A DNA stretch of 64,000 nt. Origin: Psilocybe cubensis. Lineage: Eukaryota. Shown here one piece after another: positions 33,883 to 50,704 of this stretch. The notes below the pieces were generated by a model. The model ran no database searches. It had not been told where the DNA came from and saw only the letters and a list, made by a program, of their open reading frames with translations. The stretch's first letter is position 1, and each line of letters starts with the position of its first letter. The stretch spans positions 1,116,001 to 1,180,000 of the forward strand of contig CM038998.1 in NCBI GenBank assembly GCA_017499595.2. Direction: 5' to 3'. Both the position numbers and the translations under genes were made by a program.

Positions 33883-34619
33883 TTGTGGTCATGTACATTT
33901 TTTTTATTTTTTATCTTACTTGAGGGACATTGAAATCAAAAATGTATGTATCATCTTTGCGGAATAAAAAATCATCATAAGATCGTTGCATAGGAGCTGC
34001 TTACTGATTGGTGACTATCTAATGACGGTTGCATATCTGTGTTTTTCTGCAAACTGCTGAAGACCATCTTTTAATGAGATAGTGGACATTATTTATCAGC
34101 TGATAAGATATCAATATCATGAAGATGGATACTAGATGGAAATACGGTATCCTGACTTATGAAGTGACTATGATAAAGTGCGAACTCTGGAACAGCATCA
34201 AGGGGCCATTTTTCAAGTCAGGCTTCTCTAGTAGATCCGCAAGGCGGTGTAATTTTTCGGCGCCTTCAAAGTGACTTGGAGCACTGTGGGCGCTTCCATC
34301 GTCACGACTCATGCTTGAAGGACCAAATATTCAGTAAACTGAGAGGTTACAAGAATGCTTATAAAGACACTTACGCGTCGAGGAGCTGAAGTGTATGAGA
34401 TAGAATGCTCGAGTTGAATGAATTGTGCCACCAATCGCCGAGCTTTGTTTGGTGTCGTCGTCAGCGCTTACGGACCGGGCGGCAATGTGACAGTGACGGC
34501 ACGGCGGTGCTTGAAACCGAAAGAGTCATTAGGTCTGATTGCTCTTCTGCTGCGGCCACCTCCTCTTTTCTTAACAACTTGAATCATCTCTTTGCTTTGT
34601 GTCCTCTTTATTCTGCCAC

Positions 34620-37600
34620 ATGTTTACTATCAAAATCACGTATCGAGGGCTGACTCGAAGACACACCTTCCCAGACACCAATACTTTCCCCAGTTACGAC
34701 GATATCTCCACCCAAGTGAGTCTCACGTTCAAAGACTCGTCCCAGATAACGACAACGACTAATACATTTCCCCAGCTAAATCACTCCTTTTCTTTATCTA
34801 ACAATGTTTATTATTCCAAACTATTATTTTCTCCCGATGCTGCCCAGCCTTCTCGCATCTTAATCGGCAAGGAAGTTCACAACGCGTACGAGTATAACAA
34901 GTGCATTCGCCAGTTCAGGAATCGTTCTTGGCCCCATGCTATGCTGAGATTCACAATCATAGACGTGTCCTCTCGCGTTGCTGAAACTACTTGTGAGTAC
35001 TATGCTTTCTAAGCATTTATCTGTCCACTCTTTATTAATAACCGGTTCCCCCTTTCTAGCCTTGCCGACGACGAGCACAATCTATACTCGGTTCCCTCCT
35101 GTCGGCCCTCGAGTGGCATTCTCCTCTGCGAACGCCATTGAAAGTCAGACTAATGCAATGGACGTCGATTCCACCCCCGCACCCTCGGCAACCCGCAGTG
35201 TCTCTATGAGACAAACTAGGCCGCAGCCTGTTCGACCGGCTGCGCAGCGCAGGGCATCAGATGTTGCTTGTTGCTCGGCTAAAAGTGCCAACGAGGACAT
35301 GCGCGTCATCTTGACCGAGTTTAAAGACATTGTCGACAGCGCGTTAGCCACCAATCTCTCCATGATGACAAATGGCTCCAATACTGCTAATGAGGCACCG
35401 CCTCCGTCGGTCTGTTCAAATTGCACTAGAAACATTGGAGCAGTCCGTAACGGTCATGGGGATTGGTACTCGTGTGAGAACTGCCATGTTGTGGTGGTGA
35501 GTAACTATTTTCCTTGGCTTATTTTTATTGTAAAATTGACAATATCCTAAGTGTGATTCGTGCCATATCGTCGACAAGCCTGCTGGCTTCTGTTTGAGCA
35601 ACATGGGGACACATCAGATGAAGTTAGCTAGCGCATCAGACGCTCGAGGATCTAATCTACCCATTCCTCATCTTCCAACACCATGGGATAGATTCATGAC
35701 AGGGCCACCTAGTTCATCAACCCCGCAATCATCTTCTCCATCCAATACCACTCCACAAGTTCCTGTAGACTCTTCGAATCCTACACCTGTGGTTCATGTA
35801 GGTATTATATGTGATGTTTGCAACAAGGTCGTTGAAGGTGTTCGCCACAAATGCCTCGATTGTCCCGGTGTGTTAATTGCATCTTTCATTGTTGAATCGA
35901 ATCTAAGACGCTTTGTTTGAAGACTATGATTTATGCGATTCGTGCATTGGAAATGGTGCCGCTGAAGCGCACAACCCTTTCCACGAGTTCTTTGACATAC
36001 TGGAACCAGGCAGGGTTATTGTCCATACAGTCTTCAACGGTGATAGCGACAGAGAGACAGCAAGGCCGTCTCAAAGGCGGTCATCAGCATCAGCATCCGT
36101 TCCTGCCCCCGAGCCCGCTGCGCCTTCATCTCCGGCTGTCCACCCTGCCACTTGTGACCTCTGCGAATCGCGAATCATTGGCAATCGTTATGTACGTTTT
36201 CTGCCTGTCCGAGTGACTTTGCGGATGATTAATCATATGTTTAGAAATGTCTTGTATGTCCAGACTTCGATGCTTGCGACTCCTGTTTCAGGTAAGTTCA
36301 TCGTCTTATTTGGTACTTAGAAGCTTTCTGACCTTTATTTTATAGCATTACACCGGAGCAACATCCTCGACATGCTTTTGCCCGACTTCAAACCCCTGAA
36401 GATTATGTCGTAAGCATTGTCATCCGTTGTAAGGTTGCAATGAAAAACCTAATCATTCCGCAGCGTGCGCGCAATGTCACTAACCCAATGCATTACGCTA
36501 CTTGTGATGGTATGTTTTATGAATATCCGGGTGCAACATTTGTTTTCTAAGCGGCCTGTATCATAGGCTGTAACAAACCAATTTATGGTTGCAGATTCAA
36601 GGTAAGTATATCATCTCATACTTGGTAGTGAGCGCAAGCCAACAAAAATATAGTGCATGCATCCTGACTGCCCAGATTACGATCTTTGCGAAAGCTGTGA
36701 AGCGCTGCCAATTCCAGTCCACCCCCCTTTGCACCCTATGTTGAAGATGAGGCTGCCAGAATCTGTGATTCCGACAGTCTACAGAGTCGGTGAAAGGCAG
36801 GTAATCCCTGAGACTACGCCACGAGTCGTCACACAAGTGAAGACTCCTGTCGCTGAGTCCCCTGCCTCAAAGCCAACGGTGCCACCCAAGTCTCCAGTGC
36901 CTGTCCCTACGGAACCATTGGTTAACCCTTTCCTTCATGACGACGAGCGAGTCAAGACTCCAACACCTTCTGCAAAGCCCTCTTCACCTATCAAGGCATC
37001 CCCAGCTAAACCTCCACCTGTACCACCGAAGCCGGAAATGATCTCACATGCATCATGGGCCTCGATTCCTGGGTTCTTCGGGTCCTCTGCACAATGGGAA
37101 ATCAGACCTCCACACCCGTATGAACATTATCCACCAGTGTCGGATAACCTTGGTGATATCTTCCAACCCAAGGCTTCATTGGGCAACCCTTTCGCAGACA
37201 TTCCTCTCTTGAATGTCTCAACGATTTCGGCTGCACCGACCTTTGGTCCAGTCCCAAAGACCACGCCGAACTTGCCACCTGTTGCATCATCAGAAATTAC
37301 TTTGCCCACTGTACCGAATCATACACCGATGAACCCATGGCCTACAACCAATGCGGCAGAACGTCAGGAGCTTTTGCAGCTCATTGCCAATGCTTCAGGA
37401 TCCCATGGCCCGCCCGTCGTCCCTGCAGAGCAAACTGCTAAACCACTTACGCCGCCTGCACCGCCTGTCGAGCACCTTGTTTCTATCCATGAAATCTCTG
37501 ACAGTAATCCTGAGCCTTCTTCCAAGTCCGAAAAATCACAGACTGTATCTCCGCGCGACTTTTCTAACCTTTCGTTGTCACATTTGTTGCATGACCTTGA

Positions 37601-38714
37601 GGACCGAGTCGCTTCTTTGAAAGCCAATAGTGACGTTGACGAAGATAAGCTTCCTAGCGTCACAGGGTCATCTCTATCGGAGGAGGCTCTCCTCAAACGA
37701 CCAACTTCAGAACCCTCGATGTCTAATAACACACTCTCGTATCCTCCCTCTCTTGCGCACTTGATCGCTGAACTGCCCACCCTTGTTCCCAAGGCAGCTG
37801 ATGTTCTTCCTCCATCATCACTAACAACCGATGCAAAGGAAGCCACTCTCCCTCTTGTCCCTTTGAGTGCATCTTTCATCGAAGACGTGACGGTGCCAGA
37901 TGGTCAAGTGTTCCCTCCTGGCGCAGAGTTCGTGAAATGCTGGCGGCTGCGCAATGATAGCACCCGAGACTGGCCGGAGTCGACACAGTTGGTATTTGTT
38001 GCTGGAGAATCGCTGGCGACCCAGAAAGGCGAGTTGGCTGTTGAGTTGGGTAAGGTTGAAGCCGGTAAGGAAATTGATGTGTGGACGGGAGAATTAAAGG
38101 TTTGTAGCATCCTCGTTCTTCCATATTTTTTTGCTTCATGTGATACTTATGCTTTGACTTTTCAGGCTCCCGAAGGTCCTGGGCGATACGTAGGTTATTG
38201 GAGATTGAAAGCTAACGGTGAATTATTTGGAAGTAGCTTATGGATTGAGTGCGTTGTTGTCATTCGCTAATTGTTTCATCGCAACCTCTAATTTTTTTTA
38301 ATTTTTAGAATCAATGTAGTGGAAGCGGACCACCACTCTTCCGACGAGTCTTCTATGGCGGCTTCCTCTGTTATCATGCCGCAGTCGTCAGCAATCGCCC
38401 AGGATGGTGCAAGCCGCCAAGCTGTTTCTTCTACCGTACAATCCGCCGCTGGGGATACGTCCACCATTTCCACTGAGGATGACCTCTCCGATGCTGGCTC
38501 TGACATTTCGTTGATCAGCATGCCATCCTCGCCATCTGACGATGAGGACGAAGGACTCTTCCACGATAGCCGTTCGTTCATCACTGCCGAGTCCGCCGCC
38601 GCCGCTTCTGTGGTCGCCTCTTCTTCTAGGACTCGCAGTGTTCAGAACTCTCGTCTCTCATCGGCTATGGATTATGTACTCCTGTACGACGATACATCTT
38701 CTTCCGAGGATTGA
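34620..38714 (+). CDS. NBR1: NBR1-like selective autophagy receptor: PB1-like N-terminus, four ZZ zinc fingers, FW (four-Trp) domain, C-terminal AIM/LIR
   Basis: ZZ motifs CDVCNKVVEGVRHKCLDCP|DYDLC, CDLCESRIIGNRY|KCLVCPDFDAC, CD|GCNKPIYGCRFK|CMHPDCPDYDLC; FW domain DVTVPDGQVFPPGAEFVKCWRLRN...GRYVGYWRL...FGSSLWIE; terminal DYVLL. Confidence 0.9.
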
Positions 38715-39722: not shown

Positions 39723-40903
39723 TCAAGAATGTGGTGGATCCTTGCGAGACCTCTTGGTCTGCAGGTGTTTCTTAGTATCAGAATCGGAACTACTTGACAT
39801 GCCATACTGAGAGTCGGATTTACGCTTGTTTCGAGAACTTTGTTGAAAGGTGAATAATTCTGGCCTGAATTTGTTGCTGCCTCCAATTTTCCAATCAGCT
39901 TCCGTGGTGGTGGAACAAACATCTCGACAGAGTTGGAGTGCCCAGCCTTTCTTCAAGTAAAGTGATAGAAGATGACTGGCCCGAACGTCCGGGAAATGTA
40001 TATGTTCTCGAATGATCTTATCCAACTTCTGGCATACTTGTGATTCTGTAGCATCTGGGAAATCGTTTAAGACTTGCTCATGCCACAGCATAAATGCCCT
40101 CTTGTCCCGGTCCTCCAGTTGGTAACGATTGCTGATAATTTGTTGGTATTTCCTTAGGATAGTTTCCAGGGGACGCGAAGTGAATTTCTGTTTGCGAACG
40201 GTATGGGTGTTCAAAATCCTGTCGTATTTGGTCTCGGAACACCACGTTCCAGTTTCGGTGTGTAGCACGTCGTTGTATACACCCCTCATAAGCGATTTAA
40301 TTGTGACAATAGACTGGCTGTGTTCACCATGCCTCATTGCCACCCAGAATAAAACATACCAAAAAGATTCTAAGTCATAGTCCTTCACGTGTGTTGGCGA
40401 CGCATCATCTTCACGCTCTCCTATAAGGCGGTAAGCCATGAATGGCCAGGTACCCTAATAAGACAGGATGAGCAACTAAGTAACAAATATAAATAAAATA
40501 CCCCACAGTTCGCTCAGGCAAACTAGCCTGCTGGCCGATGGTGGACTTATTTTGGTCCCAATCAACTAGAAGACCACGACTGTTCTCGTCGATCATTATG
40601 TTGTCTGAACTGATATCACGGTGGAGCATACGAGCCGACTCAAAAGCTTCATGGTGAGCTATACCAACAGATTTGTTAAGTTGCGCGTCTCTGAGGGGAC
40701 TTGGACAAATACTGTATACCATGAACTGCATCTGTAAATGCCGTTAAAAGTTCCCTGATGTGCGAAAACTGGGTCAAGGGTTTGGCATTTTTGTTGAAAG
40801 CAACGGTATAATGTTGAAATTTCGTGGTGCGTTCTGCCCAACTACCGCATTTCGGAATGTGGGGCTTTGCTACCAAGTAGGTTTTTGTTTGCTGAGGCTG
40901 CAT
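39723..40903 (-). CDS. Fungal FunK1 (Pkinase_fungal) kinase, N-lobe-truncated copy A (3 exons; gene or pseudogene)
   Basis: KPLTQFSHIRELLTAFTDAV|AHHEAFESARMLHRDISSDNIMI..GLLVDWD..PERT|GTWPFMAYRL..DYDLESFWYVLFW; no N-lobe upstream. Confidence 0.75.
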
Positions 40904-41969
40904 ATCCAGGGAGAGACGATGCTGTTATGTTGAATACTAGCGGGGACAAAGGCAGAGTCGATAGATATGGAATGGAGTATTCGCGTTTAGTGTAGTACAA
41001 AGTAGAGTTAGATAGTTAGTCAAATGGTCACGCTGGCGCACGATTTGGGTAATGAGGCACACACGGAATTGTCCAGTGCCTCTGAATGGCCTACAATGAG
41101 CCTGCCCAAAGTCTGCCCTCACAGAGTCGGTTAAAAACGAAAATATGTCGTTTGATTATGAAGATATCGAAGATACCGTTTACATGCACGGGAAAAGGAC
41201 AGTGACTTCGGGTTTCGAGTTAAACGAACAAAATTATGCAGTAACACGGCGCCTTCAGTCCATTCACAATTTGCAAGGTCGGCTAACGGTCGACCATTTG
41301 GGAAATACGATGTGGTGCGTGAATGGCCAATCTTTTTAAGAGACTTTGGTGAGTATGTCTGCTGACTATTGCCTTGATTGGTTATTTAAGCACAACGAGG
41401 TTCCCAAGAAGCTTTTCGAATCAAATCAATGAGATGCCCATGAGTAGGCTGCAGAGTCGGAGTCGTAGCTTGTCAACGGTCAGTTAAGGCGAGAGGACGA
41501 AAAGGTGAGAGTATGAGGACCATTGCGTATAGTCAAAAGTCACACGGTAGGTGTCCAACAACATGGTGGGCGTAACGTGCCTAGCAGCATGATCACTTCA
41601 CTGGTAAACTTCAAATTTTACTTGGACAGTGTATCATTGACTCATTATTCATTGAGATGATTTGAGGTACATAGAGAGAGCATATATATACAATAGGTAT
41701 ATGGGCCGCACTGCTGAGCATTGATGAAGCTTAAAGTTGCGAGAAATCAAGCGACTAAAGCTGTTACTTATCGTGGCATAACGGTGAAGGATGAGATAGA
41801 AATAGAACCTCGAATGAAAAAATCATGGAGGTAGACAAAGTTACGAACTATTTGCTGTTACCTGTACATTGATAAGTGTCGAACCCTTGCAGGGTGTTTT
41901 GTTGCGTGGTATTTCGTTGTCGTTGGCATCGCTTGCACTCGACATGTACTGAGACTTGGATTGGCGCAT

Positions 41970-43053
41970 TTATCGAGAGTATTGCTGGGAGTTAAGTAAT
42001 TCTGGCCTATATTTGTTGGTACCTCCAATTTTCCATTCAGCTTCTGTGGTGGTGTCACAAACATTTCTACAGAGCTGGAGCGCCCAGTCGTCCTTCAAAC
42101 AAAGGGACAAAGCACATCTGGATTGAAGATATCGGAATCGTTTATTTTGCTTAATGATGCTGTCCAACTTGTCCCACACTTCGGACTCTGTGGCTTTCGG
42201 GGAGCCCTCTAAAACTTGCTGATGCCACTTAAGAAATGCCTCCTTGTCCCGCTCGTGTAATTGGTATCGGCTGCTGATAATTTGTTGGAACTCCTCTAGA
42301 ATGGTTTCTAGAGGACGTGAGGCGAAAATTTGTTTCCGAACGGTGAGCGGGTTCAAAAGCTTATCATATTTAGTTTCGGGGCATGAGATTCCAGCTTCAG
42401 TATATTGTCTATTGTCGTAGACATTCTTCATGATTGACTTGATTTCAGAAATAGGCTGACCGTGTTCAGCATGCCTCATTGCTACCCAGAATAAAACATG
42501 CCAGAATGATTCCAGATCATCTTCTTTCGTAGGTATTGGCATTGGTTCATCGACTTTGCGCGGTGCCACAAGACGGTAAGAAATGAACTGCCAGGTTCCC
42601 TAATATAATAGGATGAGCAATTGTGCAACCACTATTGATAAGGTCTCTTACTGTGTGCTCCGCTATAGTAGATTCATTCCGTCCAAGAGTCGACTCGGAC
42701 AAATCCCAATCAACCAGGATTCCACCGCCGTTCTTCTCAATCACAATGCTTCCGACGCTGATATCTCGGTGGAGAATACGAGCCAACTCGAAAACTTCAT
42801 GGTGGGCTGCAGTCCGAGTAGCAGATATTTGATTGGTCATTTCTGGGGATGATTACTAAGTAAACGAATTACCTTGGATCGCATCTGTAAATGCGGTTAA
42901 AAGTTCCTTGACGTTCGAGAACTGCGTTAAAGGTTTGAAATTTTTGTCAAAAGTCAACTTGAAGGTCTGGTATTTGAGGAACTTGTATGCTCGATCACCC
43001 CGTCTAGTTTCTGATTTTGTTGGCAAGAAGATTTTGGTTGTTTGAAGGCACAT
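41970..43053 (-). CDS. Fungal FunK1 kinase, N-lobe-truncated copy B (3 exons; stop earlier than in copy A)
   Basis: [75 protein letters not shown]. Confidence 0.75.
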
Positions 43054-43844
43054 ATCAAAGTAACAGTTGTAGTATGGTGTATACCGTCGGCGACCAAGGT
43101 AAAGCCTTCCTGAGTAGGAAGAACGTGGAGTGTTCGTGTTTGATGTAGCACAAATTCGCAAAGCAGACAGATAGATTTAGGAGCAACCCAATCAAAAAGT
43201 TCAACCCAGGTCACGCCGACGCATGATTCAAGTTTCGAACAATGAGTGGCATGGGCACGCTGCACGGCGGGAGATGGTCAGTAGATTAGATATTAGATAT
43301 TAGATATGTAAAGTACCTGAGAAAGACAATAAGAGTACACAAATTCTGTACAATTGAAAAAAGGACTGAAACATCTTGTCCACAGAGATCAATACTGAGC
43401 TGAAACCAAAAGTGCATCGGCGGAATATCGAGGAGCTGGAAAAGAGTTGAAAGGCATTATGGATTGCCGTCAATAAGTGGGCAACACTGAGAGCTCGAGA
43501 TAGGAGTTCAAACAAAATTTGAAAAGACTGCGAACAAATTTTGAGTGAACCATGGGCCTAATTGTTGGTGGCTTTTCAAGCCGCTTTTGTTGGCCTTCAC
43601 TGCTTGAAGTACTGTGTTCCCATAAAACCCGAGTGCTAGTAGAACTCCGACTCGTCGATGAAAACCCGTGATAAAGACAAAGTCCATACATTAGCCTGTT
43701 AAGGCCCGAGAAAGCAAATGCGAAGAAGCTGAATTTGTCCCGCCAATGGACTCCTATGGAGTGGGTCCAAAGAAACAAAATGCAAACAAAATAAGTTCTC
43801 ACGGCAGCATCCGACAACTTCAAGCTTCATGCCTTAATCTTTAA

Positions 43845-44290
43845 ATGCCAGCACCTGGCATGCTCTAGTGGGGAGCTTGCTTTATTCGAATACTGGATTT
43901 GAATTTTGTATTTGCTAGAATACAACATTCAATCGTTATATATATTCACTAAGATCAATGCCATATGTATCTAAAGTAAATCCAAGTTCATTCCGAATCC
44001 TACGTATAGTATCTTCCTGTAACATTTTCATAGAAGGAGTCTCTTCAGACCGCTGTAATCTTGAAAGTGGAAAGTGATCTTTAAAAACCAAGCCTTTTAA
44101 AGACTTGACCCGTGAAATTGCAACATATGAAAGACCCGATGAGAATTCCTTTAATCCTAGTTGAATAGTAGCATGTGTCAGCGTTAAACCCTGACTTTTG
44201 TGAATTGTAATTGCCCAAGCTAAGGCCAAAGGTAATTGTGTTCGAGATAGGGTTTTATCAGCACGGTTTTCCCACCGAGCAGTAACACAT
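43845..44290 (-). mobile_element. PIF1-type helicase C-terminal fragment, probable Helitron-like transposon remnant
   Basis: [23 protein letters not shown]...[16 protein letters not shown] (PIF1 motifs V/VI), intronless, AT-rich; 7-bp-stem hairpin at 43845-43861 downstream of the stop. Confidence 0.75.
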
Positions 44291-44291
44291 C

Positions 44292-45940
44292 CTATACAGG
44301 GTTACCAAATTTGCCTCCCTCTTCGTTGATACTCGAAAGCGCTGGTGTCTTGCGCGCCCTTTTGTTACGTGGCTTTCCGTCACGTTCATCATCGTTCTCG
44401 CTCGACATAGCAGAATACTGAGATTCCGATCTGCGTTTTTGCATCGAGCTTTTTTGATAAGTCAATAACTCAAGCCGACGCTGGTTGGAGCCCCCGTGAT
44501 TCCGTTGACTGACATCGGTAGTTGAAAACACGTCCTCCAAAAGTTTTGCTGCCCAGTTGGGTTGAAGCGAAAGCAAGAATTCGTTCGGATCAATTAAAGC
44601 AATCCTGTCATTGAGATCCTTCGTTTTCATGTTGTGAGAGTAAATCTTTGACAACAAATGTAAGCCAATTTGTTCGTCTGTTGCAGCTTCATTGTTCTGT
44701 TTTAAGAAGGCATCTCTCCATGACACAAGTAGCTGCTTTGAAGCTTCAGTGATAATATATCTTTTGTTGATCACAGCGAGATAATTCTCAAGAGTGGTGG
44801 CAAGAGGGGAAGAGGTGAATTGGAATTCACTGGTGATGTACTGGCTCTGGCGTAAGATATACTTCTTTGTAACACTTGGTGTGTATTTAGAATCTGCAAG
44901 AATGCGTCTCCTATCGTACACGTCGAATAGAATATGTTTGATGTGTTCCGTTTCTTTGTCATGTTCGGCACGTCTAAGAGCTGTCCAGAACAAGACGTGC
45001 CAGAAGGATTCCAGATCATCGTCCTTATTGTGTAATGGCTTCGGAAGAGTGTCGTTGGGCCCACTTTCAGCAACAAGGCGATAGGCAATGAATTGCCAAG
45101 TTCCCTGATGACAAGAAAATTAGATATCTACTCGTAAATATAACAAAGAACAATTCCGTACCGTACGCTCAGGCAGGCTAGGCCCCTCACTTTGCTCAAT
45201 GGGCAACTTGGTAGACTTCGACAAATCCCAATCCACCAGGAGACCATGCCCATCGTCATCAATCATGACGTTCCCTGCACTGACGTCACGATGAAGTATA
45301 TGGCCCAGCTCGCACGCCTCATGGTAAGCTGGATGGGAACGACAGAGTCAATTCGATCTCCTTCCGCGATGTAAGATGAGATATAATTACCTTGGATCGT
45401 GTCAGAAAACACAGTGAGAAGCTCTTTCATATCCTTGAATTCTTCGAGAGGTTTTGCATATTCATTGAGGACTAATCGATAATGCCTAAAACTCCGGAAC
45501 TTATCAGGACGATCTCCACGCTTGGTATCTTTTTTGACATCTAGGCAGGTTTTCGTCTCCTGAAGGTCCATGTCATCGTATGTAAGCACTGTTGGTATAT
45601 GGTGGACTCCAGCGGCAGCTAAAGTAGCATATGTTTCATGCTCGGGTTTCAGAGAACGCGAAAGAATCCGCCAGCTGTCTTTCATGAACACATATTTTTT
45701 AGTTTGCATGTCATAGGCTTTGAATGTGCGTGTTGAGCGTCCAGTCGGCGAGGCAGTTGCCATAAACTGTGGCGCCGCAATAATAAAAGACATTGCCTTG
45801 ATGGTGATTCTATAGAATGGTCCCTCCGCGTTGATGTCGAGCGCACTTTTAACAGCAGCTGGGAGGGCAGGGTCTGCAGGAACTAAACGAGTGGCATTGG
45901 GATCAACGCCCCTGGCTTCCGGAGTTATATCCCAGTCCAT
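44292..45940 (-). CDS. Fungal FunK1 kinase copy C (N-lobe present, catalytic motifs intact, 5' end rearranged)
   Basis: [74 protein letters not shown]. Confidence 0.8.
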
Positions 45941-46220
45941 CAGAAGCCCGCGACCATTTTCACCAATCAGAATATTTCCAGGACTAGCATCGCCATGAAG
46001 AATGTGAGTTTTCTCGAAGGCTTCACGTTGAAGGTGATAGCAATATCAATTGTAGAATTGTATAGTACCGAGTATGATGTAGTTTACCTTCGATAGCATC
46101 TGTAAATGCACCTAGAAGCTTCTTGACATTGTAGAACTCCTCCAATGGCTTTGAAGATGGCATAAGGGCCAAATTATGAATTCGGATTTTCGAAATCTGT
46201 ATGGACGGTCACCCCGTTCT
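45925..46220 (-). pseudogene. FunK1 kinase fragment D fused to the 5' end of copy C
   Basis: ERGDRPYRFRK(frameshift)..KPLEEFYNVKKLLGAFTDAIE|..[32 protein letters not shown]. Confidence 0.7.
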
Positions 46221-47387
46221 TGGCGATGGAGTCATGAAAGAAGATGATCCTGGCCAGCTGAAATTGAATATTGTCTTTAATAGAGTGCAGTTCCACCCAG
46301 TTACTGTGAAAGGATAACGCGGTTCAAGCAGAACAAGAGCTGGCCATCGCCAAAAGCAAATTCAACCAGGTCACGGTATCAGTATCGACATGACTGTGAT
46401 TGGCAAAAGGGGCATACTACAGATGAACATGAACCGCAATCGCATTGGATGTAAGTGCCAGTCTTAGGTTCTCTATTCCCCAGTGTCGAGGCCTCACAGA
46501 ATCCGGGATTTTTATGATGTCTATTGAAATATATTGTAACGCGGACTTCAGGTTCCGATAAAATGGCTGTAACTTGGAAGGATAAATTCTTCCTGAGATG
46601 CAGGCTGGAATCGGCAGTGTCGTCTTAGTCACAAATGGTATTGACAGACTTGATGTTGTTCCATTGCGAGTGAAATTTGAGCATAGAGAGAATTGTAGAA
46701 AGTTTGATACATAATATCCTAGACGATGTTGTGGGTGCGAGAGGTCAGGAAAAGGAAGTTAGGATGCGCGACGAGCTTCCAGATAGAATGGATTGACGCG
46801 CCAAACATGGCAAGCGACAAGTGGCTGTGCCTTGAACCTGACTCCGACATTGGCACAAGAACGCTTTCTTTTCTACTGGCAACATCCTCCAGATTGGTTG
46901 GTTCCTTGAACCTTCCTTGATTCAGTTATCCTCCAGGACTACATACTCCCCCTCGCTCTAAGAAAAATTTTCGAGTTGGCGAGCAATGGTCGACTTCTAC
47001 TTTCCCTTTCAACGGAAGACTGCCATTAAGCTTCCAGTCTGCGAGTAAAACTGCTTTCCTGACAAATTGGTCAAGACGAAGGCGAGCGCATTCAAATTCG
47101 AATGATTGCGATCTATTTCGACAAATCAGTTGCATTAACACTCGTTATTCAACCCATGCGAAAATCAAACTTTTGATGGGCCACCGCGTCGACGTCTTTT
47201 TTCACCTCAGGATTCGGAAGGTGTAGAAAAGAATCGGCAAGTGCCGCTGTACCAACACAGTTTAAAGCTATTTTGGTCCGCAGCATAGCCGCCCATCTCT
47301 CACTGTCAACCAGCACGTCTTCCTGTGCTTAGCAACTGCTTAACGCCAGACCCAAGTCAAGTGCCATTCCCGGGCCATACTTCACCT

Positions 47388-49575
47388 ATGGATGGCATTC
47401 TTGACCGCTTCACCATCGCTACCTCGTTTCCAGAGAAAGATACTGGAGAACCCAATGAGCAAACGTACGTTTCCCACCTCAAAGTATGGCAAGGAGCTGG
47501 CCGTGAAGGAGATTCGATGCAATGTCGATACATTGTCCTCTCTGGTTTGTGGTAAATCACGTATTAAACAATCTGTAAATTGAGTTGTTCGAATAGAGCA
47601 CCACGATGGTTCCGCATGTCTGCACAAATCCAAGTTAAATAGCAATGGCACACTCTCTGTTGGCAAAACCTTTCGGTTGTCAGGATTGCGAAAAGTTGTG
47701 GTGTCGAGTGTAAGGCAAGACATTTCACCAATTGGGTATTGGTTCTGAATTGCCCCTCAGCCATACCTCTTTAGCTTAATCTTTAGCAAAACGTACAGAT
47801 GGCGATCGGAAGCTAGAGCCGACCAAACTGAATTCTTGGAAACCTTGATTTCTACCTTTCGAAAGGTCACTAAAGGGCAGATACCGCTGCAGTTGACGGG
47901 TCTCCATGATTGTGAGCTTTATGAAATGAAGACGCTGTTCGATATTGACGTGGATACCCCTACAGATGATGTCCCGTCGCACTCAGCTCCTGATAGCAGC
48001 CAGATCGACGGCAAGAGCCCATCACCTTCCAGGAATTGCAACGAGAGTTCCTACCGCCAGATCTCAGTTTCACAGGATAATTCTATTGCATCTATGCAGA
48101 CCATGTTCGCTATTTCAAGCGCACCGGTCAATCCCGCAAATTCCTCTTCTCTCAAGCAGGATCCACCCATCCATTCTGCTTTGTGCTTTTTCTGCGACTC
48201 TCGGATTGTTGGTGACCGATATGTATGTCTTTTCATCGCCTTAAGCCTGGACACAATCTAAACACAGCCCGTTAAGAAATGTTTGGACTGTCCCGACTTT
48301 GACTGCTGTAGCACCTGCTTCGTGTACGTTCTTCGGACATCCATGTCAATGTTGTCCTTATTTTCTTGGTAGTATTACCCCTCAACAGCACCCTGACCAC
48401 GCTTTTGTACGAATCAAGGCATCAGAAGATCACATTGTAAGCCAATATATTATGTCAACTTCGTATTTACGCATCAGGCTCATTTCTTTCTTAGCGTGCC
48501 CGTCCTTCTGTGAAACAGATGCATAACACTACTTGCAAGGGTATGCTCAAAACTTTGCGTTTTCGCTGATGTGTTCAAGCTCGTTTATATAGGATGCTCT
48601 ATGTCCATATATGGTTGCAGATTCAAGGTGATTAAATTCTTTTCTTGCGAATAGTTTCTTTACACTGATAGTAAAACGAAAAAGTGCATGCACCCCGAGT
48701 GTCCTGATTACAATCTTTGTGAAACCTGCGAAGCACTTCCGATTCCTGTCCATTCTGTTTTGCATCCAATGCTAAAGATCAAGACACCCGGGACGTTGAT
48801 TCCTCTTGTGCGCAGCAGCATGCACGGAAATATGGCCTGTGAATCACCGTCATTTACGTCCCCCACAGATCGGACCACTGTTATCCCAAAACTGGAGCTT
48901 ATCCCTAAGCTAGAATTTGAAAGCACGGTCTTCCAATTGCCAACGGATACCAATCCCTGGTCCAACTCGTTGACGAATAAAAATGTCACGTCCGAGCTTC
49001 CTAAGAGGAGATCTCTGCCTGTGCCCCTGACAGTCACCAATCTGGTCGATCCTCTTCAAACGAGAGTTTCTTTGACAAATGCAAACACTTTTACTGATAT
49101 GACCATTCCCGACAATCCCAACTCTGTATCCACATCCGCGTACAACCCAAAGTCTGCTATACCCATGGAAATGCGGCCATCTTGTGCATCTAATCTTACT
49201 CTAACGAAGCCATCGAAACTACCCGAACCCTTGCAGTTCAATACTAACGATTCATCCATCGCAATTGACCATCCATTCATTACCCAGTCATCTCAGCTTG
49301 GGTGTGAAGAACTATCTCCTTCATTAACCAACGGTAAAGATGGATATTCTCGTTCCACAGCTCATTCGACCTCGTTGGTTGTTTCCCCTGAGGAGGAAGA
49401 CGACATTGATTTGGTCAGTGTGTCTTCGTCCCCCATTGACGATGATGACGAAGGACTGTTTCGGGAATGTCGAATTCATATTTCTCCTGAGCCTGTTCTC
49501 ACTGGGCGTATGCTCCGCGAAAGTGAATCTGCCAAAGATTATGTTCTTGTGGACGATTTTGTATACAAACACTAA
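47388..49575 (+). CDS. Chimeric protein: Sec3-like N-terminal PH (PIP2-binding-type) domain + two NBR1-derived ZZ fingers + acidic tail with AIM/LIR; 8 exons
   Basis: Exons 47388-47544, 47597-47709, 47761-48222 give TYVSHLKVWQ..RYIVLS|E..LHKSKLNSNGTLSVGKTFRLSGLR..|PYLFSLIFSKTYRWRSE..EFLETLISTFRKVT; later exons are colinear with NBR1 ZZ3-ZZ4 with identical intron positions; ends DYVLVDDFVYKH*. Confidence 0.8.
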
Positions 49576-49774
49576 TATGGCATTTCAGGTGACTCGTTCA
49601 TATTTGACTAAAACAAATCACTTCAGAACCTTTTCTATTCCACATATATAAAACATCAAAACACATCGTATTAATCAATATACGCCAGTGTATATATTGA
49701 TTGCCATAAGTTTGCTTGTATCTTTGGACAATGGAACCAAGTTAGCCTCTGATACCAAAAATGTGATGTCAAAA

Positions 49775-50704
49775 CTATAGCATTGTGGGGGTACACAACA
49801 ATGCCGTTACAAAGTCTCTACCAAATAACTCAGTGTGTACCTCTTTATACTTTGGTAAACTCTCTCCGTTGTCAGACATGTTGGCAGGATAAGTATAACC
49901 TACGCCTGCATCTCCCACAAGGACTGGGGCAGTAGTGATTATCAGAGAATCTACGACCGCTTCGGATAAGAAAGAGGCGATAATCTGAGCCCCTCCTTCA
50001 ACCATCAACGTTTGCACCCCATGGTCCTTCAGAGTTTTGAGGGCGTTAGCAATGGATACAATTCCAGTCTTCCTGTCCTCGGACGGTATTACTGCAACTT
50101 CCAAAATCTTTGCCCCCGCAGCTATGAGAGCAATCATTCTGGCTTGCTTATCAATGTCATGGCCCTGAGATGACAATGAGTTTTCTCCACAGAGAATCCA
50201 AGGCCTTCTCCCAATGCCATTTTGAAAATTGCGTAACAATTTGCAAGTGGGTGACAGACGAAGGTGGGTGTCAATAATTATGGGGCGGGGTAGGTGATGT
50301 GGTGTTGATGTTGGCGGTGGTAAATGGCGTACTGTATGCAGTAAATGAGATTCATGCCGACAATAACCGACATGTTTGTTTATGGTGTGGACTGACCGTT
50401 GAGCTGCGGGTCGTCATTTATCGCCGTTCCGATCCCCACAAGAATGGCATCATGCATAGTCCTCATCCTGCTCAAAATAATGGGAAAAGGCTCAGTAGCT
50501 GTATGCGAGCTCCTTATCGTACCAGTGTGTCATAAGCATGCTTTCTTTCCCACTGAGAATAAGTTGACGTCTGCCCGCCCCAGCTATCTTCGCGTCCAAA
50601 GATTGAGCAAATGTTAAAGTAACACGAGGCCGAGTGAGTGGGATTGGAGAAGATTGATAGCGTCCAACAACATTTTTCAGAAACTCTGGGAAGGCCATAT
50701 TCAT
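49775..50704 (-). CDS. RIB7: 2,5-diamino-6-(ribosylamino)-4(3H)-pyrimidinone 5'-phosphate reductase (RibD_C/Rib7)
   Basis: RPRVTLTFAQSLDAKIAG, LILSGKESMLMTH|..MHDAILVGIGTAINDDPQLN, PRPIIID, LMVEGGAQII, ITTAPVLVG. Confidence 0.9.

What the first reader, a model, noticed from the sequence alone, without database searches (positions are those of the whole stretch)
47388..49575. Intact chimeric gene: exocyst Sec3-type PH domain fused to NBR1 ZZ fingers and an Atg8-interacting motif, a candidate novel autophagy receptor
Seen: three exons only partly captured by the ORF track (47388-47544, 47597-47709, 47761 onward; donors GTTTGT and GTAAGG, acceptors TAG and CAG) splice in frame to MDGILDRFTIATSFPEKDTGEPNEQTYVSHLKVWQGAGREGDSMQCRYIVLSEHHDGSACLHKSKLNSNGTLSVGKTFRLSGLRKVVVSSPYLFSLIFSKTYRWRSEARADQTEFLETLISTFRKVTKGQIPLQLTGL. 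The rest of the gene is colinear with ZZ3-ZZ4 of the NBR1 gene 9 kb upstream, with five introns at the same positions (..RY|KC..CF|IT..|RAR..C.|GC..RFK|CMHP). It also keeps the NBR1 tail (DIDLVSVSSSPIDDDDEGLF..DYVLV vs DISLISMPSSPSDDEDEGLF..DYVLL). PB1, ZZ1-2 and FW are absent, and I see no frameshift or stop. Knowledge: the Y..H.K.W / RYI.LS / HKSKLN.NGT.SVGKT / TYRW pattern is what I recognise as the fungal Sec3 N-terminal PH-like domain, which binds PI(4,5)P2, Rho GTPases and Sso t-SNAREs. Fungal Nbr1 uses ZZ domains to bind cargo and a Y-x-x-L/V/I motif to bind Atg8. Inference: exon shuffling built a new receptor that could link plasma-membrane or exocytic-site components to Atg8, or act as a decoy. 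I know of no described protein with this architecture.
Basis: partly seen in the sequence, partly recalled or inferred. Interest (0 to 1): 0.9.

Follow-up and report, generated by a model that had tools for sequence, protein, structure and literature searches.

The report
Expressed Sec3-PH / NBR1 fusion gene
A mushroom (Psilocybe cubensis) carries a real, transcribed gene that joins the membrane-landmark domain of the exocyst protein Sec3 to the zinc fingers and Atg8-binding tail of the autophagy receptor NBR1, an architecture not found elsewhere and of untested function.

Summary
Window 47388-49575 (+) is an intact gene of Psilocybe cubensis.

- **N-terminus:** a full Sec3-type PH domain. Pfam PF15277 scores 60 bits, and the ten best structural matches of the model are all yeast Sec3 PH.
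- **Rest of the protein:** paralogous to ZZ3-ZZ4 and the tail of the NBR1 gene at about 34.6-38.7 kb. Four internal exons have identical sizes and phases.
- **Join:** it lies inside exon 4 (48049-48120), so this is not intron-mediated exon shuffling.
- **Age and constraint:** the paralogues are old (synonymous sites saturated, pN 0.216). Exon 1 and the last exon have counterparts in another organism.
- **Rarity:** no other protein with this architecture turned up.
- **Divergence:** the PH lost most of Sec3's polybasic PIP2 patch. Both ZZ fingers changed acidic-pocket residues. Two tail motifs (DIDLV, DYVLV) are conserved.

An Atg8/Atg11-linked adaptor role is plausible but untested. Both public gene models are mis-spliced, and NCBI's name "SEC3" is wrong.

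The parts
47256..49653 (+). Transcript span seen in the spliced RNA contigs (X1 covers 47256-49644, X2 covers 47325-49653)
   Evidence: table 8
47388..47544 (+). CDS exon 1 (ATG at 47388; PH domain, first part)
47597..47709 (+). CDS exon 2 (PH domain core, HKSKLNSNGTLSVGKTF)
47761..47911 (+). CDS exon 3 (PH domain C-terminal strands and helix)
47912..47965 (+).
47966..48222 (+). CDS exon 4: the SEC3-derived linker runs to 48048, 48049-48120 resembles neither parent, and the NBR1-derived part starts near 48121 (beginning of ZZ3)
48277..48323 (+). CDS exon 5 (47 nt; NBR1 counterpart 36245-36291)
48373..48436 (+). CDS exon 6 (64 nt; NBR1 counterpart 36346-36409)
48495..48540 (+). CDS exon 7 (46 nt; NBR1 counterpart 36464-36509)
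48593..48627 (+). CDS exon 8 (35 nt; NBR1 counterpart 36567-36601)
48685..49575 (+). CDS exon 9: second half of ZZ4, an S/T/P/N-rich linker, the acidic tail and the stop codon
47520..47865 (+). Sec3-PIP2_bind PH domain as matched by Pfam (residues 45-125; spans introns 1 and 2)
47517..47528 (+). M-Q-C-R, in the place of the Sec3 polybasic patch (yeast KKKR; Agaricomycete SEC3 has mostly (R/K/Q)KPR)
48184..48400 (+). ZZ3-type finger, residues 214-251 (all eight Cys/His kept; pocket reads F, D, D)
48534..48765 (+). ZZ4-type finger, residues 277-317 (all Cys/His kept; pocket reads K, D, N)
49402..49461 (+). Conserved acidic tail block DIDLVSVSSSPIDDDDEGLF (residues 530-549). DIDLV fits the FIR / Atg11-claw type core motif
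49537..49551 (+). DYVLV (residues 575-579), a candidate Atg8-interacting motif
34600..38714 (+). Parent paralogue: the full NBR1 gene (four ZZ fingers, FW domain, tail ..DYVLLYDD..). Its 5' end is approximate

Best explanation
SHOWN. This is a genuine, transcribed and fully spliced 9-exon gene of Psilocybe cubensis encoding 586 aa. A copy of the 5' part of SEC3 (PH domain plus the start of its linker, introns included) became joined at DNA level, exon to exon, to a copy of the 3' part of NBR1 (ZZ3, ZZ4, linker and tail, introns included, FW region lost). The duplication is old, and the gene also occurs in at least one other organism.

INFERRED mechanism. The protein works as an NBR1-derived adaptor.
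- Its acidic tail carries two conserved short motifs: DIDLV, preceded by EEEDD, and DYVLV, followed by DD. These would dock it to the autophagy machinery (Atg11/FIP200-type claw and Atg8).
- The Sec3-type PH domain replaces PB1 and ZZ1-2. It would bring the protein to the partners of Sec3's PH, meaning Rho/Cdc42-type GTPases or the Sso-type syntaxin at exocytic plasma-membrane sites.
- Dependence on PI(4,5)P2 is probably weakened, because three of the four polybasic residues are gone.
- The two ZZ fingers keep their zinc ligands but have altered N-terminus-binding pockets. If they bind cargo, their specificity differs from NBR1's.
For: Gene and expression:
- The spliced frame is open.
- One spliced contig in each of two runs covers PH through tail. 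Intergenic sequence and introns are covered only in the DNA runs.

PH domain:
- PF15277 scores 60 bits, profile positions 4-87 of 87.
- Yeast Sec3 PH chains match by sequence at E 5.6e-8.
- The model has pLDDT 87.3, and its ten best PDB matches are all Sec3 PH, TM 0.73-0.82.

Origin from SEC3:
- The PH region (residues 1-140) is 56% identical to P. cyanescens SEC3.
- It is sister to that SEC3 in a 45-row tree, SH-aLRT 96.
- Similarity to SEC3 extends over 47415-48048.

Origin from NBR1:
- Exons of 47, 64, 46 and 35 nt have the same phases in both genes.
- 79 of 125 residues are identical over ZZ3-ZZ4.

Constraint:
- pS is 0.83 (saturated) against pN 0.216.
- All zinc ligands are kept.
- A second strain differs by an in-frame 3-nt insertion, two missense changes and one synonymous change.

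Orthologue:
- P0002 is a last-exon ORF, 43% identical, with SPIDDDDEGLFRE and DYVLVDD.
- P0056 is exon 1. It shares 7 states with this gene that are absent from 6 SEC3-type rows, including MQCRYIVLS.
- Both sit on a contig of 5673 nt.

Tail motifs:
- They are conserved between the fusion gene, its orthologue, P. cubensis NBR1 and, for the YV(V/L)(L/V) block, one Mycena NBR1.
- Both fit the psi-Theta-x-x-Gamma core (passages of PMC7946963).
- Fungal Nbr1 carries a LIR and binds Atg8 (passages of PMC9233695).
Against: - No binding, localisation or phenotype data exist, so the whole functional part rests on motifs of 5 residues and on homology.
- PB1 and FW, which give NBR1 its oligomerisation and part of its cargo binding, are absent.
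- The PH branch is very long: 1.0 against 0 for P. cyanescens SEC3. The polybasic patch is lost. Two of the 11 nearly invariant family columns are changed, F72L and W78F. The Sec3-type interactions may therefore be lost.
- Three of the six ZZ pocket positions differ from the D/N seen in the NBR1s.
- The RNA evidence comes from one study, and its runs are RNA only by inference.
- That the two orthologue fragments lie on one contig is inferred from equal contig length only.
- dN/dS could not be assigned to the fusion gene's own branch.
Confidence: 0.45

Rival explanations
1. Regulatory decoy or competitor rather than a cargo receptor. The isolated Sec3 PH titrates Sec3's partners (Rho/Cdc42, Sso syntaxin), or the tail titrates Atg8/Atg11. 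This would modulate exocytosis or NBR1-dependent autophagy without carrying cargo, much as amisyn reuses a Sec3-type PH next to a SNARE motif.
For: - It lacks the Sec3 coiled-coil and C-terminal parts, and also PB1 and FW.
- The ZZ pockets are altered.
- The Atlas shows that Sec3-type PH domains do occur outside the exocyst, as PH-only clusters and in amisyn/STXBP6.
- Short PH-only proteins are annotated in several Agaricomycetes.
Against: - Zinc ligands and two ZZ fingers have been kept across saturated synonymous divergence. That is hard to explain if only the PH or the tail mattered.
- The PH itself has diverged strongly at a known functional patch.
Confidence: 0.25
2. Transcribed chimeric gene without a maintained function: a relic of duplication that is drifting.
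For: - The PH branch is very long.
- Conserved functional residues are lost in the PH and the ZZ pockets.
- Distribution is narrow: 0 of 139 PH relatives carry a ZZ or NBR1 part and 0 of 80 ZZ loci carry a Sec3-type PH.
- Within-species changes are 2 missense to 1 synonymous.
Against: - The 1761-nt frame is open although synonymous sites against the parent are saturated.
- Eight introns are precisely spliced.
- The indel seen in a second strain preserves the frame.
- Intact exon-1 and last-exon ORFs exist in another organism, with the same derived residues and the same tail motifs.
- All 16 zinc ligands are kept.
Confidence: 0.12
3. It is the organism's exocyst subunit SEC3, as NCBI's record names it.
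For: The name in the NCBI record, and the PF15277 match.
Against: - There is no Sec3_CC or Sec3_C-term domain. The genuine SEC3 of P. cyanescens (1077 aa) has both.
- Everything after residue ~190 is NBR1-derived.
- The PH is only 56% identical to a congeneric SEC3.
Confidence: 0.01
4. Assembly artefact that joins two unrelated loci.
For: None beyond the unusual architecture.
Against: - DNA contigs of two runs cover the whole stretch without a break at the join. X3 may be the window's own source; X4 is a different strain.
- RNA contigs of two further runs cross the join.
Confidence: 0.01

Closest known systems
Fungal NBR1 (here the paralogue at about 34.6-38.7 kb; Chaetomium, Sordaria and S. 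pombe Nbr1 in the literature)
   Same: - ZZ3 and ZZ4 with all zinc ligands.
- Five shared intron positions.
- The acidic tail block and the YVL(L/V) motif.
- Literature, from passages only: ZZ domains bind cargo N-termini, and a LIR binds Atg8.
   Different: - No PB1, ZZ1-2 or FW domain.
- ZZ pocket residues are F/D/D and K/D/N, against D or N, D, D in the NBR1s compared.
- A Sec3 PH domain sits at the N-terminus.
Exocyst subunit SEC3 / EXOC1
   Same: - The N-terminal PH domain by sequence and by fold.
- Sister to P. cyanescens SEC3 in the tree.
- Introns 1 and 2 lie where unspliced ORF fragments of other Agaricomycete SEC3 genes break off (this is an inference).
   Different: - No coiled-coil or C-terminal exocyst-assembly domains.
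- The polybasic patch reads MQCR.
- The branch is very long.
p62/SQSTM1, seen as a shortened NBR1 paralogue
   Same: A duplicated, shortened NBR1 relative that keeps ZZ and LIR and lacks FW (review PMC9582228, passages). ZZ4 matches p62 ZZ chains at E about 4e-5.
   Different: p62 keeps PB1 and has a UBA domain. This protein has neither, and it has a PH domain. It arose independently in a mushroom lineage.
Amisyn / STXBP6
   Same: A Sec3-type PH domain reused outside the exocyst and fused to another module (Atlas clusters with PF15277 plus Synaptobrevin).
   Different: Amisyn is a vertebrate protein with a SNARE motif as its partner module. It has no ZZ fingers and no Atg8-type motif. Its function is recalled, not checked here.

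Membership tests
Sec3-PIP2_bind PH domain (Pfam PF15277) | Match to the family HMM above the gathering score over the whole domain | tested here: met
   60 bits against a cut-off of 25.3, profile 4-87 of 87, residues 45-125. Exons 2 and 3 match colinear halves of the profile on their own.
Sec3-PIP2_bind PH domain (Pfam PF15277) | PH fold closest to Sec3 PH | tested here: met
   Model with pLDDT 87.3 and pTM 0.81: seven strands plus a C-terminal helix. The ten best Foldseek PDB matches are all yeast Sec3 PH.
Sec3-PIP2_bind PH domain (Pfam PF15277) | Polybasic patch needed for PIP2 binding (yeast K134, K135, K136, R137) | tested here: not met
   The aligned residues are M44, Q45, C46 and R47, so only the Arg is kept (mutant data in passages of PMC2213614). 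Six SEC3-type rows have K at the Q45 column. The family-invariant R47 and K63 and the nearly invariant K76 are kept.
Sec3-PIP2_bind PH domain (Pfam PF15277) | Binding of PI(4,5)P2, Rho1/Cdc42 or Sso2 | not testable with these tools
   Needs liposome and pull-down assays.
Exocyst subunit SEC3 | Sec3 coiled-coil (PF09763) and Sec3 C-terminal (PF20654) domains | tested here: not met
   Absent at E <= 0.1. Both are present in P. cyanescens SEC3.
NBR1 | FW (N_BRCA1_IG, PF16158) signature domain | tested here: not met
   Absent. Present in the neighbouring NBR1 gene at 86.6 bits and in 27 of 80 metagenome NBR1-like loci.
NBR1 | N-terminal PB1 domain | tested here: not met
   The N-terminus is a PH domain. 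Caveat: Pfam did not call PB1 on the ORF piece of the neighbouring NBR1 either.
NBR1 | ZZ zinc fingers homologous to those of NBR1 | tested here: met
   Pfam ZZ at 28.2 bits in 2 stretches. 79 of 125 residues identical to the paralogue's ZZ3-ZZ4, with shared intron positions.
NBR1 | LIR/AIM that binds Atg8 | tested here: inconclusive
   The motif DYVLV is present and conserved in the orthologue and the paralogue. Binding is untested.
N-terminus-binding ZZ domains (p62, Nbr1-ZZ1 type) | Three conserved acidic-pocket residues, mostly Asp | tested here: not met
   ZZ3 reads F, D, D and ZZ4 reads K, D, N. P. cubensis NBR1 and two Mycena NBR1s have D or N, D, D in both fingers. That a three-residue pocket exists comes from passages of bioRxiv 10.1101/2021.02.07.430097. 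The mapping of its positions onto C-D-x-C and D-x-D is recalled from p62, and the paper's figure S9C was not seen.

The most novel reading that the evidence does not exclude
A new type of selective-autophagy receptor, confined to a mushroom lineage. It would read exocytic-site landmarks through a re-tuned Sec3 PH domain (Rho/Cdc42 or the plasma-membrane syntaxin rather than PIP2) and hand them, or cargo held by re-specified ZZ fingers, to Atg8/Atg11. That would be a direct, single-protein link between the polarised-secretion machinery and autophagy.
Probability: 0.3. Interest if true: 0.75.

Novelty: new variant of a known kind. Interest (0 to 1): 0.55.

Why it matters
- **Origin of a new gene.** It is a clean natural example of a new multi-domain gene made from the halves of two well-studied genes. 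Both parents are identifiable, introns are preserved on both sides, and the gene is expressed.
- **If the tail binds Atg8/Atg11.** It would show that the NBR1 scaffold can be re-aimed by swapping its N-terminal module. It would also give a handle on crosstalk between the exocyst and autophagy in filamentous fungi.
- **Annotation.** NCBI's record calls this protein SEC3, and both public models are mis-spliced.

Tried and rejected
- **Whole genome:** none is held. I could not read P. cubensis's own SEC3 gene, its introns or its location. SEC3 is not in the window.
- **Earlier findings:** none.
- **RNA runs:** no holder is on record as RNA. The RNA nature of X1 and X2 is inferred from splicing and from the lack of intron and intergenic cover.
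- **Metagenome scan with P0001:** 72 pattern matches, none related.
- **Metagenome scan with alignment A2:** 144 relatives, 80 kept. 0 of 80 have a Sec3-type PH and 27 of 80 have FW, so they are ordinary NBR1-like genes or short ZZ contigs.
- **Protein searches:**
  - At lengths 320-1021, P0001 found only itself, P0002 and NBR1-type proteins, 7 hits in all.
  - The 'longer' search with exon 3 found only P0001.
  - The PH-only search of 1.84 billion representatives gave 140 hits, and none of the 139 non-self hits carries a ZZ or NBR1 part.
- **Orthologue fragments for exons 3-4:** only P0061 scored marginally closer to the fusion gene than to SEC3 (57.4 against 55.8 bits), which is not informative.
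- **Atlas:** no usable feature hit and no cluster combining PF15277 with ZZ.
- **DNA comparison of the two paralogues:** only three coding pieces align, at 70-75%. Introns and flanks do not, so no duplication borders were found.
- **dS:** not computable, because pS of 0.83 exceeds the correction limit. My first attempt was mis-registered by one residue.
- **Papers:**
  - The search for K134/R168 gave nothing useful.
  - The review PMC11576722 names no residues.
  - The eLife paper PMC9427108 gave no pocket residue numbers in the passages seen.
  - No listed paper combined Psilocybe cubensis, NBR1 and Sec3 in a relevant way.
- **Supplements:** closed. Figure S9C of the ZZ preprint may bear on the pocket mapping.
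Full report
**1. What is in the sequence**

ATG lies at 47388. Exons 47388-47544, 47597-47709 and one starting at 47761 have GT donors and AG acceptors, and they splice in frame to the quoted peptide. Adding exons 48277-48323, 48373-48436, 48495-48540, 48593-48627 and 48685-49575 keeps the frame open to the TAA at 49573-49575.

**2. Expression and the true exon structure**

Five public runs hold this stretch, and none is on record as RNA. I laid four of them.

- Runs X3 and X4 (one study) carry the DNA unspliced. X3 may be the window's own source.
- Runs X1 and X2 (another study, two samples) each hold one contig, of 1962 and 1902 nt, covering 47256-49644 and 47325-49653.
- In those contigs all seven predicted introns are cut out at GT..AG.
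- X1 and X2 have no cover on the upstream intergenic bins or on the introns. They are therefore RNA-derived, though this is my inference.

The mature CDS has 9 exons and 586 aa. The PH exons and the ZZ exons sit in one transcript. The evidence comes from one study.

**3. Organism and public models**

The protein is in public databases for Psilocybe cubensis under two models, and neither matches the RNA.

- P0001 (583 aa) is named "Exocyst complex component SEC3" by NCBI. It keeps the 54-nt intron and skips exon 5 and part of exon 6, which destroys ZZ3.
- P0170 (607 aa) is called "ZZ-type domain-containing protein" by UniRef. It keeps the same intron and adds 9 nt at the exon 5 acceptor.

**4. 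The N-terminal domain**

- Exons 2 and 3 on their own match colinear halves of Pfam PF15277, Sec3-PIP2_bind.
- On P0001 and P0170 the match is 60 bits (E 2.3e-16) over profile positions 4-87 of 87, residues 45-125.
- Yeast Sec3 PH chains match by sequence at E 5.6e-8 to 1.3e-6, with query residues 12-134 aligned to Sec3 95-228.
- A model built on a 25-row alignment has pLDDT 87.3 and pTM 0.81 and shows seven strands plus a C-terminal helix.
- Its ten best PDB matches are all yeast Sec3 PH, TM 0.73-0.82.

**5. Where the PH came from**

- A search of 1.84 billion representatives with residues 1-140 gave 140 hits. The named ones I looked up are mostly basidiomycete SEC3 or short PH-only proteins.
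- The closest relative is the genuine SEC3 of P. cyanescens (1077 aa, with the Sec3_CC and Sec3_C-term domains), at 56% identity.
- In a tree of 45 rows the fusion PH is its sister (SH-aLRT 96). Its end branch is 1.0 against 0. For that tree I dropped rows covering fewer than 105 query residues and the redundant cluster members P0147-P0166.
- Similarity to SEC3 runs over 47415-48048. The alignment opens an 18-residue gap exactly at the RNA-supported 54-nt intron.
- The real SEC3 gene is not in the window.

**6. The NBR1-derived part**

A full NBR1 gene lies at about 34.6-38.7 kb, with an FW domain at 86.6 bits.

- Its exons 36245-36291, 36346-36409, 36464-36509 and 36567-36601 are 47, 64, 46 and 35 nt long. 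Exons 5-8 here have the same sizes and the same phases, so the five flanking introns sit at identical positions.
- Over ZZ3-ZZ4, 79 of 125 residues and 244 of 375 bases are identical.
- pS is 0.83, which is saturated, while pN is 0.216.
- At DNA level only three coding pieces align, at 70-75%. Introns and flanks do not align.
- The fusion gene is 63% identical to its neighbour NBR1 and 58% to two Mycena NBR1s. The neighbour is 65% identical to the Mycena proteins.

The duplication is therefore old, and the ZZ part is not strongly accelerated.

**7. The join**

- SEC3 similarity ends at 48048.
- NBR1 similarity starts near 48121.
- The 24 codons between them (48049-48120) resemble neither parent.

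All of this lies inside exon 4. In NBR1 the corresponding exon also holds the end of ZZ2. The fusion was therefore exon to exon, within two low-complexity linkers, and not intron-mediated exon shuffling. The last exon lacks the FW region and its introns.

**8. Conservation elsewhere**

P0002 (342 aa) is an ORF equal to the last exon of a relative. It is 43% identical and starts at MHPECPDY. It shares the blocks SPIDDDDEGLFRE and DYVLVDD and has no FW domain.

P0056 (85 aa) is an exon 1 that reads on into its intron.

- It is identical to this gene at 31 of 53 aligned positions, against 27 of 51 for P. cyanescens SEC3.
- It shares 7 states with this gene that are absent from six SEC3-type rows, among them Q and C in the polybasic patch.
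- At 5 positions it agrees with SEC3 where P. cubensis has diverged.

Both proteins are recorded on a single contig of 5673 nt. I take them to be one orthologous gene, but I could not read that contig.

Nothing else with the architecture was found:

- 0 of 139 PH relatives carry a ZZ or NBR1 part.
- No 320-1021 aa protein other than P0001 combines the two.
- No Atlas cluster combines PF15277 with ZZ.
- 0 of 80 metagenome ZZ loci carry a Sec3-type PH.

A second strain (X4) differs by D42E, L405Q, a synonymous change at V579, an in-frame GTT insertion, and two non-coding changes.

**9. What has changed in the domains**

PH domain:

- In yeast Sec3, K134, K135, K136 and R137 are needed for PIP2 binding. 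I140, L141, S142 and P145 are needed for Cdc42 binding (passages of PMC2213614).
- The fusion protein aligns M, Q, C, R to the first set and V, L, S, H to the second.
- Agaricomycete SEC3 rows have mostly (R/K/Q)-K-P-R at the polybasic site.
- The orthologue shares MQCR, so the loss is old and has been kept.
- The family-invariant R47 and K63 and the nearly invariant K76 remain. F72 and W78 of the consensus are L and F here.

ZZ fingers:

- All Cys and His zinc ligands are kept.
- ZZ domains bind protein N-termini through a pocket of three mostly Asp residues (passages of bioRxiv 10.1101/2021.02.07.430097).
- I mapped the pocket positions by recall from p62, because the relevant supplementary figure was not seen.
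- On that mapping, P. cubensis NBR1 and both Mycena NBR1s have D or N, D, D in both fingers. The fusion gene has F, D, D in ZZ3 and K, D, N in ZZ4.

**10. The tail**

Two blocks survive between the paralogues in an otherwise unalignable tail.

- DIDLVSVSSSPIDDDDEGLF matches DISLISMPSSPSDDEDEGLF at 14 of 20 positions, by my own count.
- DYVLV matches DYVLL.
- Both blocks are also present in the orthologue. The second recurs as RYVVLYDD in one Mycena NBR1.
- Both fit the core psi-Theta-x-x-Gamma proposed for FIP200-claw (FIR) and LIR motifs. [quoted passage not shown]
- Fungal Nbr1 proteins carry a LIR, and Chaetomium Nbr1 binds Atg8 (passages of PMC9233695).

Five-residue matches are weak on their own. 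Here their conservation is what counts.

**11. Reading**

Shown:

- It is a real, expressed, spliced fusion gene.
- It is old and constrained.
- Its architecture is Sec3-PH, linker, ZZ, ZZ, long S/T/P/N-rich linker, acidic tail.

Inferred: it is an NBR1-derived adaptor whose tail engages Atg8/Atg11. Its PH domain would direct it to Sec3's protein partners rather than to PIP2.

Rivals:

- a decoy or competitor;
- a drifting relic;
- a true SEC3, which the domain content excludes;
- an assembly artefact, which one search excludes.

It is not a member of the SEC3 family, because the exocyst-assembly domains are missing. It is not NBR1 in the strict sense, because FW and PB1 are missing. It is a paralogue built from both.

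**12. Verdict**

No paper among those listed describes such a protein. This is a new variant of a known kind, and its function is open.

Noticed in passing
window 47912-47965 and 48223-48372: Both public gene models of this locus disagree with the RNA contigs. P0001 keeps the 54-nt intron and skips exon 5 and part of exon 6, losing 21 aa of ZZ3. P0170 keeps the intron and adds 9 nt (PVK) at the exon 5 acceptor. NCBI's product name 'Exocyst complex component SEC3' is a misnomer.
   Followed up: yes
window 39723-46045 (-): Three paralogous gene copies with fungal protein kinase (Pkinase_fungal, FunK1-type) matches lie between NBR1 and the fusion gene. A helicase C-terminal fragment (weak Herpes_Helicase and UvrD_C_2 matches, PIF1/Helitron-like by recall) at 43936-44301 abuts one of them. 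This suggests a rearrangement-prone stretch.
   Followed up: partly
proteins P0008, P0010, P0013, P0015: Several Agaricomycetes have short annotated proteins that are little more than a Sec3-type PH domain: Hymenopellis radicata (155 aa, two accessions), Postia placenta (222 aa), Phanerochaete sordida (280 aa) and one of 150 aa. They may be truncated models of SEC3 or real PH-only paralogues.
   Followed up: no
P0003 C-terminus against window 38292-38711: Mycena maculata NBR1 has EDEEWASV (a W-x-x-V motif) where Psilocybe NBR1 and the fusion gene have DDEDEGLF / DDDDEGLF. The acidic block may hold a LIR in some species and not in others.
   Followed up: no
window 47425, 47513, 47724, 49028, 49551, 49868: A second strain (run X4) differs by an in-frame GTT insertion in exon 1, D42E, one intronic change, L405Q, a synonymous change in the last codon of DYVLV, and one change in the 3' flank.
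   Followed up: yes
window 49775-50413 (-): The gene downstream on the opposite strand has a RibD C-terminal domain (66.8 bits). Separate short contigs in X1 and X2 cover 49736-50000.
   Followed up: partly
window 48610-48629 and about 36584-36603: A 20-nt stretch (tatggttgcagattcaaggt) is identical in the two paralogues across the exon 8 donor. It showed up as a second placement of the X3 contig.
   Followed up: partly
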